41,226 nt of DNA, from assembly GCA_937864065.1 (NCBI GenBank), contig CALMIC010000276.1, positions 1 to 41,226 on the forward strand, written 5' to 3'. The position numbers and the translations under genes were made by a program. The notes under the pieces are model-generated. The model was not told the origin of the DNA, made no database searches, and worked only from the letters and a program-made list of their open reading frames with translations. Numbering within the stretch: the first letter of the stretch is position 1; each line of letters opens with the position of its first letter. The DNA is from an uncultured Cellvibrionales bacterium (GTDB lineage Bacteria; Pseudomonadota; Gammaproteobacteria; Pseudomonadales; UBA7239). Below, piece by piece: positions 20,108 through 39,931 of this stretch.

Positions 20108-20791
20108 TCAGCTGTCTGCCCACATGCGCAGCAGGTTGTGGTAGGTGTTGGTGAGGCGGATGCTGGTATCGCTGTCGCCCTGTTGCTGGCGCAGGTCCAT
20201 GATCGCCATGTCCAGCTCGAACAAGAGCCGGCGCTGGGCATTGTCGCGCACCATGCTCTCCAGCCACATGAACGAGGCGATGCGCGCGCCGCGCGTGACC
20301 GGTTCGACGCGATGGATACTCGAAGACGGATAGAGGATCAGGTCGCCGGCCGGCAACTTGACGCGCTGCTCACCGAAAGTGTCCTCGATGACCAGCTCGC
20401 CGCCGTCATATTCTCCCGGCGCCGACAGGAACAGGGTTGCCGACAGGTCCGAGCGCACGCGGTAGCCGGTGGCAACGTGCGTGCGCATCGCATTATCGGC
20501 ATGGCTGCCAAAAAAATTGCTGCTGCCGCTGTAGCAGTTGAACAGCGGCGGGAAGATCTTTTTCGGCAACGCCGCCGCGTAGAACAGCGCATGACGCAAC
20601 AGCGCATCGAGTACGATTTGCTGCAGGCGCTGTGCCACCGGTGACTGCTCCGGCAGCTGCCGGTTGTTCTTCACCTGCGCCGACTGGCTGCCGGCCGTGG
20701 CACTACCATCAACCCACTCGGCTGTAGCGAGCAGTTCGCGGCAATGCGCGACCTGCTCACTATCCAGCACACACGGCACCTGCAGCAGCAT
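20108..20791 (-). CDS. piuC: Fe(II)/2-oxoglutarate-dependent PKHD-type hydroxylase (PiuC/YbiX)
   Basis: [51 protein letters not shown] and YHNLLRMW motifs. Confidence 0.95.
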
Positions 20792-20803: not shown

Positions 20804-23068
20804 TCAGAACTTGTAATCGACCTTGAGCTGCATCGTGCGCGGCGCACCCGGCAGCACATGGCCACTGTAGACGCTGTCGTAATACTCCTCGTCCAGCAGG
20901 TTGAACAGGCTGAGCTTCACGGCATAGCCCTTCTGGCTGTACTCGACCATCGCATCCCAGCGCGTGTATGAAGGCACAGCTGCCGTATTGGCCTGGTTGT
21001 TGTACCGTTCACCGACACCATCATAACCGAGGCCAGCGCGCCAGCCGCGACCGAAATCCCAGGTATTCCAGATGCTGAAGGTGTAGTGCGGTGTATTGAC
21101 CGGCTCATAACCCTCGTCCGACGTTTTGACACCAGACGCACTGGTATTCGAGTGCTCGTCGATCTCCGCTTCCATATACGCCGTCGCGGCATAGATTTCC
21201 CATTGCGGCAATGGCCGGCCGACAATTTCCAACTCCAGTGCATCGGTATGGCGCCGTCCGGACAGCACGGCGACATCCACTGCCAGGTCGGTGTTGCGCT
21301 CGTTGGTTTTCTCCGAACGCGACAGCGATGTGCGCAATGACAGGTCGCCATCGAGCAATTCCCATTTCGCTCCGATCTCGGTGTTCAGGCTTTTTTCCGG
21401 CGGCACATCGGAGGTGCGGTCGTCCAGCTGGTACAGCTCGGCTGAAGGGTTGAACGAACTGCCGCGCGAGACGTAGTAAGTGCTGTGTGCATCCGGTTGG
21501 TACAGCAGGCCCAGGCGCCAGCTGTTGACGATGTCCTTGCGCTGCAGGTCGCCGTCCGGCGCCGGACGCTGGTAATCATTTTCCGAATGGTCCCAGCGCG
21601 CACCGGTGAGCAGTTTCCACTGTTCATTGAGGCCAATCACATCCTGGAAGTAGAACGCATAACTGTCACCGGTGTAGTAGTTGTAGATGTCCTTGCCCTT
21701 GTACAGGTAACCATCCGGCAAAGCAGGATTGGTATCCGGGCTCCACCACGGTTCAGCATTCGGGTTGGCCACCCCGGCTGGCAGCGGATTGCTCCAGCGC
21801 CGCGCTTTTTCACGCAGGATCTCGTTGCCGAGCAATAACTGGTGCTCGAACGGACCGGTGCTGAACTGTGTGGTGAAATCGGTCTGGCTGGTGATGGTCT
21901 GCTCTTCACCACCGCGACCCTGGTGGCCACGGCGCACCGCCACGATATTGCTGTAGTCCACCGGGTCGGCCACCGATGCCGGTTGGTCAAGGATCAGGCG
22001 CGGCGCCACCGCCCACAGGTCGCGCTTGTAATCCGCTGCGCGCAGTTTTGTCGTCAACTCGGTGTCTTCGCTGAAACGGTGTGTGTAGGTGGCGGTGGTG
22101 ATGTCCGTGTCGTTGCGCTCGTAATCGATGGCGCTCATGCCGTAGTAGGTATCGCGGTCGACCTTCAGCGGCTCACCCTTGAATTCACCCAGCACATCAC
22201 TGCCATTGGCAGCCCGTGTGGCACCATCCGGATCCAGCAGCGGGATGCCCATGTCCGGGATATTGTCTTCCTGCAGGTGGAAATGCGACAGCGTCAGTTC
22301 ATTGTCAGTTCCGATACCGAAGCTGATCGACGGCGCCACACCCGAGCGCTCGCCATGCACCTCATCACGGAAGCTGTCGGTGTCGGTGTACATGCCGTTG
22401 ATGCGAATCGCGGTGGTTTCGCCAATCTGCTGGTTGATGTCAGCTGTGTAACGCTGGTAGCCGTAGCTGCCCTGTGTGGTGCTGACCGTGTTGCGGTCGG
22501 CCAGCAGCGGCTGCTTGCTGACCTGGTTGATCACGCCACCGGTCGAGCCGCGCCCGAACAGCATCGATGATGACCCGCGCAGCACATCGATCTGTTCCAG
22601 GTTGAAGGTTTCGCGATTGTACTGCGCCATGTCGCGCATGCCATCGAGGTAGAGATCGCCGACAGCCGAGTAACCACGAATGGTGATGTTGTCGCCGATG
22701 CGGCCGCCTTCGCCGGCATTGAAGGTAAGGCCAGCGACATTGCGCAGGGCCTCCTTGAAGGTATCGGCATTGCGATCCGCCATCAGCTTGTTGGTGATGA
22801 CCGTGACCGACTGCGGAATGTCCTTGGGTAGCTGGTCGATCTTGCCGACTTTCGTCTTGCCGCCTTGGTAGCTCACCTCGGCCGGCGTGCGGTCAGCCGT
22901 GTCGCGCACATGCACGGTTTCCAGTGTGCTGCTGTCGTCTTCTGCTGCTGAGGCCGGTTCGGCCGGCACTTGCTGCGCCTGCAGCAGCTGGCCGAAAGTC
23001 AGGCCACACAACATGGCACCGAGGGGGAGGATTTTGTGATCATTGAACTTGCGATTGACGGATTTCAT
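20804..23068 (-). CDS. TonB-dependent siderophore receptor, Fiu/PiuA-like
   Basis: Start placed at ATG 23068 after GGAG. TonB box LETVHV, DIPQSVTVI, ALRNVAGLTFNAGEGG, FNLEQIDVLRG.SSMLFGRGSTGGVINQVSK, terminal YKF; followed by piuC. Confidence 0.93.
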   Translation of the reverse strand: MKSVNRKFNDHKILPLGAMLCGLTFGQLLQAQQVPAEPASAAEDDSSTLETVHVRDTADRTPAEVSYQGGKTKVGKIDQLPKDIPQSVTVITNKLMADRNADTFKEALRNVAGLTFNAGEGGRIGDNITIRGYSAVGDLYLDGMRDMAQYNRETFNLEQIDVLRGSSSMLFGRGSTGGVINQVSKQPLLADRNTVSTTQGSYGYQRYTADINQQIGETTAIRINGMYTDTDSFRDEVHGERSGVAPSISFGIGTDNELTLSHFHLQEDNIPDMGIPLLDPDGATRAANGSDVLGEFKGEPLKVDRDTYYGMSAIDYERNDTDITTATYTHRFSEDTELTTKLRAADYKRDLWAVAPRLILDQPASVADPVDYSNIVAVRRGHQGRGGEEQTITSQTDFTTQFSTGPFEHQLLLGNEILREKARRWSNPLPAGVANPNAEPWWSPDTNPALPDGYLYKGKDIYNYYTGDSYAFYFQDVIGLNEQWKLLTGARWDHSENDYQRPAPDGDLQRKDIVNSWRLGLLYQPDAHSTYYVSRGSSFNPSAELYQLDDRTSDVPPEKSLNTEIGAKWELLDGDLSLRTSLSRSEKTNERNTDLAVDVAVLSGRRHTDALELEIVGRPLPQWEIYAATAYMEAEIDEHSNTSASGVKTSDEGYEPVNTPHYTFSIWNTWDFGRGWRAGLGYDGVGERYNNQANTAAVPSYTRWDAMVEYSQKGYAVKLSLFNLLDEEYYDSVYSGHVLPGAPRTMQLKVDYKF

Positions 23069-23084
23069 TGATGGCTCCAACCAT

Positions 23085-23116
23085 AAAAAAACGGGGTGTA
23101 TGGCTGGCTACTCCCG
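23085..23116 (-). terminator. Putative leader terminator (attenuator) in the 5' UTR of the PiuA-like receptor
   Basis: mRNA CGGG-A-GUA-(GCCAGCCA)-UAC-AC-CCCG followed by U7, ending 16 nt before the start codon. The stem is modest and has an internal loop. Confidence 0.55.
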
Positions 23117-23126
23117 GCATGGCGCG

Positions 23127-23142
23127 GGCTGGCTGGCTGGCT
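23127..23142 (-). repeat. (AGCC)4 tandem tetranucleotide box in the receptor leader
   Basis: Plus strand GGCTGGCTGGCTGGCT; a second (AGCC)2 copy lies at 23102-23109. Confidence 0.9.
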
Positions 23143-23151
23143 TTATTGGGC

Positions 23152-23170
23152 GACAATGATAACTATTATT
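23152..23170. promoter_or_regulatory. Fur box 1
   Basis: GACAATGATAACTATTATT, 15/19 match to GATAATGATAATCATTATC; overlaps the -10 (TATCAT, 23156-23161, minus strand) of a TTGAAA-16 nt-TATCAT promoter for the receptor. Confidence 0.85.
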
Positions 23171-23181
23171 ATTTAATTTTC

Positions 23182-23200
23182 AATAATGAGATTCATTATT
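23182..23200. promoter_or_regulatory. Fur box 2
   Basis: AATAATGAGATTCATTATT, 15/19 match to the consensus and a perfect 8-3-8 inverted repeat. Confidence 0.85.
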
Positions 23201-23201
23201 A

Positions 23202-23240
23202 TTTACAGGTGCGGGTTAGTTATATATGATAATCATTCAC
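23202..23240 (+). promoter_or_regulatory. sigma70 promoter of the Cys-rich orphan, overlapped by Fur box 3
   Basis: TTTACA (23202-23207)-17 nt-TATGAT (23225-23230); ATATATGATAATCATTCAC (23222-23240) matches the Fur consensus at 13/19 with an intact ATGATAATCATT core. Confidence 0.65.
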
Positions 23241-23269
23241 ATTTGAGATATCCCCACGAGGCCTTGTCC

Positions 23270-23815
23270 ATGCACACACCCGATACCCAGCCTTATCCCG
23301 TTGACACCACCGTCCATGAACTCGGCGCCAGCGAACGGCTGATGCTGATGACCTTGCGCCTGTGGGCCATGCCCCATCATAGCCCGCACAAGCAGTGCCC
23401 GGATTGGCGCACCGGTCTGTACCAGTGTGGCGCAGGCGATCAGGCATGTGTCGCGATGGACGCACTGATGAACATCCTGCTCTCCTACAGCGAGCGCCTG
23501 ATGGATGTTCGCTGCACCTGCAATACCCGCCTGGGAATCGATGAAGGCTGCTTCCTGCAAATGCTGGCAATGTTGCAGGACAATCGGCATCAGGCAGCGC
23601 AGGCCATTCTGGCCGACTGGGTGCCACTGCCGGTGCAGGGCATGGCCGTACTCTGCGCCATCCATCTGGCAGAAGCACTGCGCAGGGCAGAGGTACTGAT
23701 CCCACTGTTTTCGCGCCAGCCGGCGCAGGTGTTCCGGTTCGAGGAATTCCGGTTCAGGCGCCTGCAGCAGGCCGACGACGCTTGCGCGACCAGATCAGGA
23801 CACCGGTTGCACTGA
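23270..23815 (+). CDS. Hypothetical Cys/His-rich protein, probably Fur-regulated
   Basis: ATG 23270 with GAGG upstream; own promoter and Fur box; helical protein with the motif RCTCNTRLGIDEGCF. The ORF-track start at 23186 lies inside Fur box 2 and is unlikely. Confidence 0.7.
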   Translation: MHTPDTQPYPVDTTVHELGASERLMLMTLRLWAMPHHSPHKQCPDWRTGLYQCGAGDQACVAMDALMNILLSYSERLMDVRCTCNTRLGIDEGCFLQMLAMLQDNRHQAAQAILADWVPLPVQGMAVLCAIHLAEALRRAEVLIPLFSRQPAQVFRFEEFRFRRLQQADDACATRSGHRLH

Positions 23816-27204: not shown

Positions 27205-27363
27205 TTATTTAGTGAGAATCAGCTTGTTCTCGCGCGTGATGCGCAGCAGGTAGCGCTGGCCTGCGTGTTCGATACAGAGCGTGCGCGCCCCACGGAACAA
27301 CTGTTCCGAGGTCACACTGAGCATGGCATCGGCAGCCACAGGCGGCAGTTTGTCACTGGCCAT
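27205..27363 (-). CDS. hemP: Hemin uptake protein HemP/HmuP
   Basis: SEQLFRG.R...IEH.GQRY.LRITRENKLILTK signature; ATG 27363 overlaps the end of exbD. Confidence 0.93.
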   Translation of the reverse strand: MASDKLPPVAADAMLSVTSEQLFRGARTLCIEHAGQRYLLRITRENKLILTK

Positions 27364-29239: not shown

Positions 29240-29266
29240 AACAACTGAACCTCAATCAATAAGAAC

Positions 29267-29296
29267 GATAATAATTATCATTAGCGAAAAAATCAA
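29267..29296 (-). promoter_or_regulatory. Fur box and sigma70 promoter of the tonB-exbB-exbD-hemP operon
   Basis: GATAATAATTATCATTAGC (29267-29285) is a 16/19 match to the Fur consensus and overlaps a minus-strand TTGATT-17 nt-TATTAT promoter. Confidence 0.88.
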
Positions 29297-38357: not shown

Positions 38358-38389
38358 ACCCGGCACATCAACAGACCGGGGTGCCCGCC

Positions 38390-39931
38390 ATGAAAAACGC
38401 CATTGCTATTGCCAGCTTATGCCTGTTGCCGGGCATCGTGCTCGGCAGCACTGCCAACCTGCGCAGTGACTTCAACGCCGACGGCCAGGCTGACCAGCTG
38501 TGGCACAACACTATCAACGGCAAGAGCCAGGTCTGGTTGTCAGGCAAGGCCGGCAAGAAGTTGCCAGTAGCGCCGATGGCTGACCTGGACTGGTTCGTCG
38601 CCGGTTATGGCGACTTCAACGGTGACAACACGGCCGACATCCTCTGGCGCAATATCAGCACGGGCGCAAACACGATCTGGTTGTCTGTCAACAGCGAAAC
38701 CCCGCAAGCCGTCACGACACTCGCCGGTGACAACTGGACGGTAGCAGGTATCGCTGATTTCAATGGCGATGGCAGTGACGACATCCTGTGGCACAACACG
38801 TCAAACAACAGCAGCGTGATCTGGCTCGCAGCAGACTCAGCCGCGACACAGTCCTTGGACGATATGCCATCCAGCGACTGGCATATCGTCGGCATTGGCG
38901 ACTACAACGGCGACGGCAAGGCCGACGTGCTGTGGCGCAACATGGCGAGTGGCGAGAACATCGTGTGGTATAGCGCGGACTCCGCCACGCCACTCACATT
39001 GTCCGCGCTCCCCGACCAGCACTGGCAAGTGGCGGCCAGTGCCGACTTCAATGGCGACGGCGCTGACGACATCCTCTGGTACAACAACGCCACTGGCGAA
39101 ACGGTGCTGTGGCCGTCAGCGAACCCGGCCAATGCCATCACCCTGACGACGCAAACGGACCTGGCCTGGGTCATTGCCAATGCCGCGGATTACGACGGCG
39201 ACAGCAAGGCCGACATCCTCTGGCGCAACCGGCAGAGCGGCAAGAACCTGCTGTGGTTGTCCGGTGACAGCAACACACCACTGAAACTGGCGGCGCGCTC
39301 TGCCAAAAAATGGGAAGCGAGCAGTGTGCAGAAAGTCCACCTGACCACCGCCGGCGAAATCACCTGTACCGTGAGCAAACCCTGCACACCGCAGTTGTGG
39401 CTGCACACCTGGGGTGGCTTGCCGCCCTACCATTACCAGCACGACACCTTCCGCAACGGCACCACACCCCCCGGCACCGTGATCGGTCTCGACGGGCACC
39501 TCGCCGGCACGCCGACACGCACGGGCAAATACACTTTCGGCCTCTGCGCGGTTGACCTCGGCGGCAACTTTGACTGCCAGCCAGTGCGGGTGATTGTGAA
39601 ACCGGTGCAGCTGGTGAAGATCCAGATCTATACCGACATCAAGCCGTACAACTCGATGCTCGTCACTTTCGACGACAAGGTGATCCGCGAAACCACCAGC
39701 ATAGGGGCAAACAGCACACAGGCGATACAATCGGTTGTTATCAGCACCACCGTTGGCGAGCACACGATGTGTTTCACGCCCACCGCCGACAACTATTACT
39801 GCGATACCTACTTCAACAACTGGCTGCCTTCGAAATACCACAGAGTCACACCATCGGACGTCTGCTACGGGCTCGACATCGCCTGGCAAACCGGCGTGAA
39901 GCAGTGCTGGCCTGTGACCGTGCAGCCGTAA
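38390..39931 (+). CDS. Secreted FG-GAP/VCBS-repeat beta-propeller protein with a putative Ig-like domain and a Cys-containing C-terminal domain
   Basis: Signal peptide; six D(F/Y)NGDGxxDILW repeats; GGLPPYHY...PPG......G.LAGTPT.TGKYTF...AVD resembles the putative Ig (He_PIG) pattern. Confidence 0.85.
   Translation: MKNAIAIASLCLLPGIVLGSTANLRSDFNADGQADQLWHNTINGKSQVWLSGKAGKKLPVAPMADLDWFVAGYGDFNGDNTADILWRNISTGANTIWLSVNSETPQAVTTLAGDNWTVAGIADFNGDGSDDILWHNTSNNSSVIWLAADSAATQSLDDMPSSDWHIVGIGDYNGDGKADVLWRNMASGENIVWYSADSATPLTLSALPDQHWQVAASADFNGDGADDILWYNNATGETVLWPSANPANAITLTTQTDLAWVIANAADYDGDSKADILWRNRQSGKNLLWLSGDSNTPLKLAARSAKKWEASSVQKVHLTTAGEITCTVSKPCTPQLWLHTWGGLPPYHYQHDTFRNGTTPPGTVIGLDGHLAGTPTRTGKYTFGLCAVDLGGNFDCQPVRVIVKPVQLVKIQIYTDIKPYNSMLVTFDDKVIRETTSIGANSTQAIQSVVISTTVGEHTMCFTPTADNYYCDTYFNNWLPSKYHRVTPSDVCYGLDIAWQTGVKQCWPVTVQP
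38468..39331 (+). repeat. Six intragenic tandem repeats with an exact 144-bp (48 aa) period
   Basis: The Asp codon of the DFNGDG-type motif falls at 38468, 38612, 38756, 38900, 39044 and 39188. Confidence 0.93.

What the first reader, a model, noticed from the sequence alone, without database searches (positions are those of the whole stretch)
23069..23150. Terminator/antiterminator pair in the leader of the PiuA-like receptor
The mRNA reads CCCAAUAA-(AGCC)4-CGCGCCAUGC-CGGG-AGU-AGCCAGCCA-UACAC-CCCG-U7-AUGGUUGGAGCCAUCAAUG. CGGG (23113-23116) can pair upstream with CCCG (23125-23128, antiterminator) or downstream with CCCG (23092-23095). The downstream pairing makes a hairpin with the conserved box in its loop, directly followed by U7. 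A terminator-like structure between a Fur-boxed promoter and the SD suggests transcription attenuation. The stems are short, so a bound protein would probably decide the outcome (inference).
Basis: partly seen in the sequence, partly recalled or inferred. Interest (0 to 1): 0.72.

Follow-up and report, generated by a model that had tools for sequence, protein, structure and literature searches.

The report
HemP-responsive leader hiding the ribosome site
The repeats before this iron-receptor gene match a known control element of the small protein HemP, and comparison across bacteria suggests that the element likely works by folding over the ribosome-binding site until HemP frees it, rather than by stopping transcription as first proposed.

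Summary
All coordinates are exact. The AGCCAGCCA boxes match the published HmuP/HemP-responsive element (HPRE), and hemP lies 4 kb upstream. The proposed terminator is weak: 4 bp as written, 7 interrupted bp at best (-6.9 kcal/mol), populated 7% at the U-tract. It has no U-run in the three closest orthologous leaders. Its partner is kept, with changes, in two congeners. Across 24 lineage-thinned receptor leaders, box 2 pairs better with its own ribosome site than with others (p=0.0001); box 1 and coding controls do not. A held-out set of 10 points the same way without reaching significance (p=0.08). Two-box leaders travel with hemP (34 of 36 genomes, against 1 of 20). Best reading: Fur-gated transcription, then HemP binding both boxes to open the ribosome site (inferred; no binding or expression data). 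It is a new member of a known element, here before a Fiu/PiuA-type siderophore receptor. The scan has noted HPREs on other DNA several times. What this report adds is a comparative test of the mechanism.

The parts
23182..23200 (.). Fur-box-like site over/upstream of the -35
   Evidence: 15/19 to a recalled Fur consensus
23152..23170 (.). Fur-box-like site over the -10
   Evidence: 15/19 to a recalled Fur consensus
23156..23183 (-). predicted sigma-70 promoter (-35 23183-23178, -10 23161-23156); start site near 23149 inferred, not mapped
   Evidence: 10 of 12 matches
23127..23142 (-). (AGCC)4 run holding HPRE box 1 (23138-23130); two other strains carry one unit less
   Evidence: different sequence, same position in G005/G010
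23101..23109 (-). HPRE box 2 (AGCCAGCCA); with 23100-23099 it is the 5' arm of the anti-RBS helix (23107-23099)
23085..23091 (-). U7 run; six U lie in the loop of the anti-RBS helix, the last U pairs in it
23077..23085 (-). 3' arm of the 9-bp anti-RBS helix (-11.0 kcal/mol, populated 78-87%), covering the GG of the SD
23075..23078 (-). Shine-Dalgarno GGAG, 6 nt before the ATG
20804..23068 (-). TonB-dependent siderophore receptor, Fiu/PiuA-like (754 aa)
   Evidence: Pfam Plug + barrel; TIGR01783 above cut-off; best equivalog Fiu 334.7 bits, below its cut-off of 686
20108..20791 (-). PiuC/YbiX-type Fe2+-dependent dioxygenase, directly downstream
27205..27363 (-). hemP (52 aa), the only PF10636 gene found in the genome, at the end of tonB-exbB-exbD
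   Evidence: predicted fold matches YdiE 4ynx, Z 5.6, rmsd 1.1 over 40 residues
27073..27156 (-). second HPRE-type leader (boxes at 27156-27152 and 27118-27110) before the FhuE/FauA-like receptor; box 2 region also pairs towards its RBS (-15.5)

Best explanation
The leader is an HmuP/HemP-responsive element that likely controls translation: box 2 is predicted to pair with the bases running into the Shine-Dalgarno sequence, and HemP would free the ribosome site by binding the two boxes. Step 1 (inferred from the promoter and Fur-like boxes): low iron lifts Fur repression of both this promoter and the tonB-exbB-exbD-hemP unit. Step 2 (predicted fold): the inter-box hairpin forms first, then the 9-bp box 2/SD helix closes the ribosome site. 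The upstream repeats can stand in for box 2, so both sites must be covered. Step 3 (inferred): a HemP dimer grips box 1 and box 2 across the hairpin, the site opens by about 2.6-3.3 kcal/mol, and the receptor is made. Without HemP the untranslated message would be lost to Rho polarity or decay.
For: Box sequence and spacing match the published C. violaceum chuR HPRE (PMC9131926 passages). hemP lies in the same cluster and directly in front of the orthologous leader in G005 and G010. The anti-RBS helix dominates the fold (P 0.78-0.87). In the congeners the partner arm is kept as GGUUGG or GGCUGG, with duplexes of -12.2 and -16.3. Other lineages pair the 3' flank of box 2 with their own SD flank (L133, L139, L210, L286, L037). 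Cognate against non-cognate box 2 x RBS: -8.40 vs -7.03 kcal/mol, p=0.0001, n=24 protein-cluster representatives. Without this genome p=0.0003 (n=22). In 30 random choices of representatives p was at most 0.0033. Box 1 x RBS gave p=0.16 and box 2 x coding stretches p=0.92 and 0.49. Blocking the boxes lowers RBS opening cost by 3.4 kcal/mol against 1.07 for the same geometry on box-less leaders (19 of 24, p=0.0007). HPRE leaders are costlier to open than box-less ones (11.1 vs 8.3, p=0.011). Boxes lie on the sense strand (23 vs 4 of 78 leaders). hemP is in 34 of 36 genomes with a two-box leader and 1 of 20 without. ChuP did not shift DNA and its loss lowers chuR and vbuA mRNA (PMC9131926 passages).
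Against: Everything is computed: there is no binding, expression or probing data. The held-out set of 10 hemP-adjacent leaders points the same way without significance (duplex p=0.077; opening 6 of 10, p=0.12). The fold is not universal: G016, the next-closest orthologue, has almost no box 2/RBS duplex (-3.7). In G005 the partner arm lies about 12 nt upstream of the SD, and blocking both boxes gains only 0.7 kcal/mol. In this window the predicted SD accessibility rises only from 0.32 to 0.38-0.52. Many family-f180 leaders have no SD. G396 and G557 carry perfect two-box leaders but no hemP was found. HemP/HmuP are described as DNA-binding activators in B. japonicum and B. multivorans, and HemP as a repressor in S. 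maltophilia (second-hand passages). The fold search did not list CsrA.
Confidence: 0.6

Rival explanations
1. HemP-controlled intrinsic attenuation at U7: CGGG switches between the upstream and the downstream CCCG, and the downstream pairing stops RNA polymerase at the U-run.
For: Seven U directly follow a possible 7-bp interrupted hairpin (-6.9). With box 2 alone held unpaired the hairpin reaches 54%. In seven family-f180 genomes the two-box element sits directly before a U-run in the 3' UTR of hemP, and four terminators behind hemP begin with AGCCA, so boxes and termination do meet elsewhere.
Against: The hairpin is populated 7% in free RNA, so the default is read-through, the wrong sign for a positive regulator. 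It is 9-11% with both boxes bound. The scan finds no terminator. There is no U-run in G005, G010 or G016. U>=5 occurs in 7 of 49 HPRE leaders against 6 of 57 controls, and in 1 of 10 held-out leaders.
Confidence: 0.12
2. HemP bound to the boxes protects the RNA directly, by blocking Rho loading on the C-rich leader or by blocking a nuclease. The RBS pairing would be secondary.
For: Linkers after box 2 are C-rich (C-G skew 0.37 vs 0.17, p=0.019). Loss of chuP lowers mRNA levels (PMC9131926 passages). Many leaders show little RBS pairing. Boxes occur in hemP 3' UTRs, where no ribosome site follows.
Against: It does not explain why box 2 matches its own RBS but not other RBSs or coding stretches. 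The skew in the first 100 coding bases is not significant (p=0.09).
Confidence: 0.17
3. The boxes are DNA sites for HemP acting as a transcriptional co-activator with Fur or RNA polymerase.
For: HemP/HmuP are reported as direct transcriptional activators in B. japonicum and B. multivorans (second-hand passages). Direct repeats suit a dimer.
Against: The boxes lie downstream of the predicted start, are strand-biased, and are spaced 0-50 nt apart with a hairpin between them. In G005 and G010 they sit in the short gap between hemP and the receptor. ChuP did not shift such DNA.
Confidence: 0.08
4. The element is a decayed relic or a simple microsatellite with no function in this strain.
For: The (AGCC)n run varies between strains. 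Such repeats are common in non-bacterial contigs of the metagenome scan.
Against: Both boxes and the AGU before box 2 are invariant in three congeners whose spacers have diverged. hemP is intact and a second such leader lies 4 kb away.
Confidence: 0.03

Closest known systems
HPRE (HmuP-responsive element) of Ensifer meliloti shmR (Amarelle et al. 2019, PMID 30810877; not held, known here from citing passages) and of Chromobacterium violaceum chuR and vbuA (PMC9131926, passages read)
   Same: Same AGCCAGCC direct repeats shortly before the start codon of a TonB-dependent receptor, Fur-type promoter, hemP-family gene in the genome; vbuA is already a siderophore receptor.
   Different: The target is a Fiu/PiuA-PiuC unit, not a haem receptor. 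The host is likely Pseudomonadales (the congener's leader is identical to that of record L032, so titled), whereas PMC9241770 cites the element as absent from gammaproteobacteria. Box 1 is expanded to (AGCC)4. PMC9131926 names no ribosome-site or terminator mechanism (0 hits). From recall, the 2019 abstract mentions a predicted RNA structure, so an RBS fold may already be in print there.
CsrA/RsmA-type control of translation by a small dimeric RNA-binding protein, and phage Mu Com activation of mom (both recalled)
   Same: A small protein that would bind two short motifs in a leader and remodel access to the ribosome site.
   Different: Different motif and family. The HemP model matched only YdiE, RPA2121 and the Salmonella homologue; CsrA was not listed. 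The likeness of YdiE to CsrA is recalled from its structure paper, which I did not see.
Protein-controlled attenuators (BglG/SacY RAT, TRAP, PyrR, ANTAR; recalled)
   Same: Two mutually exclusive stems share one strand, with a U-run before the gene.
   Different: Those have a strong, conserved terminator. Here it is weak, minor in the ensemble and absent from orthologues, and there is no Rfam match.

Membership tests
HPRE (HmuP/HemP-responsive element) | Direct repeat of the AGCCAGCC type | tested here: met
   against the chuR sequence quoted in PMC9131926
HPRE (HmuP/HemP-responsive element) | Lies shortly upstream of a TonB-dependent receptor start codon, on the sense strand | tested here: met
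   box 2 ends 32 nt before the ATG; receptor by Pfam/NCBIfam
HPRE (HmuP/HemP-responsive element) | Inside the transcribed 5' UTR | tested here: inconclusive
   downstream of a predicted promoter; start site not mapped
HPRE (HmuP/HemP-responsive element) | Genome encodes a HemP/HmuP protein | tested here: met
   PF10636 at 27208-27315, E 3.5e-18; co-occurrence 34 of 36 vs 1 of 20
HPRE (HmuP/HemP-responsive element) | Expression of the gene depends on HemP through the repeats | not testable with these tools
   needs a hemP deletion or a reporter
Intrinsic terminator / attenuator | GC-rich stem of 5 or more continuous pairs with a 3-8 nt loop directly before the U-run | tested here: not met
   0 sites; 4 continuous pairs plus an interrupted 3
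Intrinsic terminator / attenuator | Terminator dominant in one regulatory state | tested here: inconclusive
   7% free, 9-11% with both boxes held, 54% with box 2 alone held; equilibrium model only
Intrinsic terminator / attenuator | Hairpin and U-run conserved in orthologous leaders | tested here: not met
   no U>=5 run in L003, L004, L005; 7 of 49 overall
Intrinsic terminator / attenuator | RNA 3' ends at the U-run | not testable with these tools
   needs Term-seq or 3' RACE
CsrA/Rsm-like RNA-binding regulator (for HemP) | CsrA fold | tested here: inconclusive
   53-residue monomer model matched only HemP-family structures
Rfam cis-regulatory families | Match at gathering score | tested here: not met
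   only a tRNA in the window; four sub-threshold chance hits in 22900-23400

The most novel reading that the evidence does not exclude
HemP is a sequence-specific RNA-binding dimer that melts hairpins whose 5' arm is the AGCCA box. In front of genes this opens the ribosome site, and behind hemP itself, where the boxes sit on a terminator, it closes an autoregulatory loop. This leader wires both outputs into one threshold switch: one bound box favours the U7 terminator, while two bound boxes give read-through and an open ribosome site.
Probability: 0.15. Interest if true: 0.72.

Novelty: new member of a known kind. Interest (0 to 1): 0.45.

Why it matters
How HemP/HmuP proteins act is disputed: DNA-binding co-activator in some papers, post-transcriptional in others. 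In the passages I could read no RNA mechanism is shown. This 85-nt leader offers one clean 9-bp helix over the SD, natural variants in congeners, and a family-wide signal that only the proximal box matches its own ribosome site. That makes the question testable with a handful of reporter mutants. It also extends HPRE control to Fiu/PiuA-type siderophore receptors and to a group where it was said to be absent. The element itself is known, and the scan has met it before.

Tried and rejected
Rfam: no family at gathering score, four chance-level hits. Sequencing runs: no RNA holder listed, so expression and 3' ends could not be examined; four DNA runs were laid, two of which cover the leader. The metagenome pattern scan mostly returned simple-repeat contigs; 6 of the 22 downstream frames sent to Pfam from it were receptors. 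Fold searches for a CsrA likeness of HemP listed no CsrA; a weak or missing match excludes nothing. The TTG start at 23080 was rejected: it lies in the SD region, and ATG 23068 has a correctly spaced GGAG. A profile search for a divergent hemP in G396 and G557 found nothing (no positive control). Papers not held: PMID 30810877, PMC5541204, PMC3068671, PMC3370842. Paper searches listed no paper whose title or abstract start shows HemP binding RNA or an anti-RBS fold; most subscription journals are not searched. No supplements were opened; those of PMC9131926 might show HPRE alignments. In one search the 'both boxes bound' constraint wrongly covered two bases of the inter-box stem and gave a 90% terminator; one search corrects it. 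The same over-long constraint affects this window's row.

Full report
Observation. The gene behind it (23068-20804) is a TonB-dependent siderophore receptor closest to Fiu but below that equivalog's cut-off, followed by a PiuC/YbiX dioxygenase. A sigma-70-like promoter and two 15/19 Fur-like boxes (consensus recalled) precede the leader; the start site near 23149 is inferred. The AGCCAGCCA box is enriched in the window (5 against 0.75 expected).

What the boxes are. The genome's only hemP lies at 27363-27205, at the end of tonB-exbB-exbD. Its model matches YdiE (Z 5.6, rmsd 1.1, 40 residues). PMC9131926 (passages read) quotes the HmuP-responsive element before C. violaceum chuR with the same two AGCCAGCC copies. 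It reports that ChuP does not shift DNA and that its loss lowers chuR and vbuA mRNA. Two of 12 other genomes of the genus carry the orthologous receptor (74% and 68%). In both, the order is exbD-hemP-leader-receptor-piuC, and both boxes with the AGU before box 2 are invariant while the spacer has changed. In this window a second receptor, a PepSY gene and a divergent ORF lie between hemP and the receptor, and the second receptor has its own HPRE-type leader.

How widespread the element is. The strict two-box pattern occurs in 44 of 401 genomes of the class against 2 for the reversed control (one of the 44, G343, is unpublished and was not used further). A slightly different pattern occurs in 27 of 401 across the phylum against 7. 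Of 45 class loci examined, 11 have a receptor Plug domain directly downstream and one a TonB; many others look like chance hits in coding sequence. I then chose 56 genomes: 36 with a two-box receptor leader and 20 whose best-matching receptor leader had none, leaving out about ten with single or short boxes. hemP was found in 34 of 36 and 1 of 20; within family f180, in 15 of 15 and 1 of 6. Kin are not independent, and 'none' refers to one leader per genome.

Testing the terminator. Named structures score -4.4 (4 bp as written), -6.9 (best 7 bp), -7.8 (upstream stem) and -11.0 kcal/mol (box 2/SD helix). When polymerase reaches the U-run, the terminator is populated 7% and the upstream stem 87%. 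With both boxes held single-stranded the terminator reaches 9-11%; with box 2 alone, 54%. The default is thus read-through, which gives a positive regulator nothing to do. The leaders of G005, G010 and G016 have no run of five U. Across 49 HPRE receptor leaders 7 have one, against 6 of 57 box-less leaders, and the hairpins before them are loose. The upstream stem, by contrast, belongs to a recurring box-hairpin-box layout (12 of 20 spacers at p<=0.1, combined p 2e-8), although this window's own spacer is not significant (p=0.35).

The helix that was missed. Once the RNA is a few bases longer, 23107-23099 pairs with 23085-23077 over nine pairs and buries the GG of the SD (P 0.78-0.87). If box 2 alone is blocked, the upstream repeats take its place, so only double occupancy lowers the opening cost, from 9.9 to 7.3, or to 6.6-6.8 if the inter-box stem is held. 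The partner arm reads GGCUGG over the SD in G010 (-16.3) and GGUUGG about 12 nt upstream of the SD in G005 (-12.2). It is absent in G016 (-3.7). Strains in runs X3 and X4 (two studies) have one AGCC unit less and both arms unchanged.

Family-wide test. Leaders were collected by rule: a receptor frame, two boxes of which one is long, and a start chosen by SD score. L301 and L305 were dropped by hand, four loci by the long-box rule, and duplicates were merged. That left 49 leaders in 24 protein clusters, with 57 box-less receptor leaders as controls. Box 2 with its flanks pairs better with its own RBS than with others (-8.40 vs -7.03, p=0.0001; p=0.0003 without this genome; at most 0.0033 over 30 random choices of representatives). 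Box 1 does not (p=0.16), nor does box 2 with coding or upstream stretches (p=0.92, 0.49, 0.14). Blocking the boxes opens the RBS by 3.4 kcal/mol against 1.07 for the same geometry on controls (19 of 24, p=0.0007). The effect is clearer with an SD (n=16, p=0.005) than without (n=8, p=0.10). Against this, ten further leaders picked by hemP adjacency and not used before gave the same direction without significance (p=0.077; 6 of 10, p=0.12), with three strong cases. So RBS occlusion is a selected feature of many HPRE leaders, including this one, but not of all. Start codons are predicted and clusters only thin out kinship.

Mechanism. Shown: the sequence elements, membership by motif and context, co-occurrence with hemP, loss of the terminator in orthologues, and specific complementarity of box 2 to its own RBS. 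Predicted: the folds. Inferred: Fur control, HemP binding RNA as a dimer (homologues 4ynx and 2jra have two chains; 2jra is titled domain-swapped), translational activation, and mRNA loss as its consequence. I give this 0.60, direct protection from Rho or nucleases 0.17, attenuation at U7 0.12, DNA-level action 0.08 and no function 0.03.

Relation to what is known. It is an HPRE, hence a new member of a known kind. PMC9241770 (passages) cites the element as absent from gammaproteobacteria. Here at least 13 of 41 hemP loci of this order carry two or more boxes directly behind hemP; the order is likely Pseudomonadales (title of L032, whose leader equals G010's). PMC11442138 (passages) and PMC10117765 (passages) add no mechanism. 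The defining paper was not held; from recall its abstract links HPRE changes to a predicted RNA structure, so the RBS fold may not be new. Earlier notes of this scan report HPREs in other genomes, one calling the RBS fold unproven. I had reached this reading before seeing them.

Verdict. Observation confirmed, interpretation partly supported: a HemP-operated leader, most likely a translational switch and not an attenuator. Interest 0.45.

Noticed in passing
L334, L335, L339, L340, L342, L347, L348 (first 170 nt behind hemP): In family f180, where no co-directional gene seems to follow hemP, its 3' UTR holds a conserved block: a short TCATCGTGGG motif, a hairpin, then box-hairpin-box directly before a U-run. 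This could be HemP autoregulation or a 3'-UTR decoy RNA. The 11-mer occurs 5-8 times per genome against 0-1 for the reversed control in five genomes.
   Followed up: partly
L066, L067, L071, L076 (behind hemP): The terminator hairpin after hemP begins with AGCCA in 4 of 5 cases called, against 6 of 441 terminator-like hairpins in the window's genome; the four come from two families.
   Followed up: partly
L104 (G396), L105 (G557): Perfect two-box receptor leaders in genomes 97-99% complete in which no hemP was found by Pfam or by my alignment: either an unassembled gene or another reader protein.
   Followed up: partly
L195, L211, L147, L161, L090, L113: Two-box leaders also precede a ferritin-like gene, a P19-type Fe2+ transport protein, two DUF1559 pilin-like genes, a TonB and an OprB-family porin, so the regulon is wider than receptors.
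   Followed up: no
L267, L292, L295, L300, L303, L307, L309: Many family-f180 HPRE leaders have no SD before the predicted ATG, yet in several box 2 pairs with the bases just before the start.
   Followed up: partly
window 23270-23815 (+): A 181-aa cysteine-rich protein without a Pfam family is read divergently from the same Fur-boxed gap; its Atlas neighbours are unnamed proteobacterial clusters, with a weak DUF6628 lead (12% of members). It was not found in the congeneric loci searched.
   Followed up: partly
window 23127-23142: The (AGCC)n run has four units here and three in runs X3 and X4: a slippage-prone site inside a regulatory element.
   Followed up: partly
window 29261-29285: Strong tandem Fur-like boxes (16-17/19) before tonB-exbB-exbD-hemP; the hemP start codon overlaps the end of exbD.
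   Followed up: no
window 38381-39931 (+): FG-GAP repeat protein; its weak TcdB_toxin_midN hit has no stretch that passes on its own and likely reflects the repeats.
   Followed up: no
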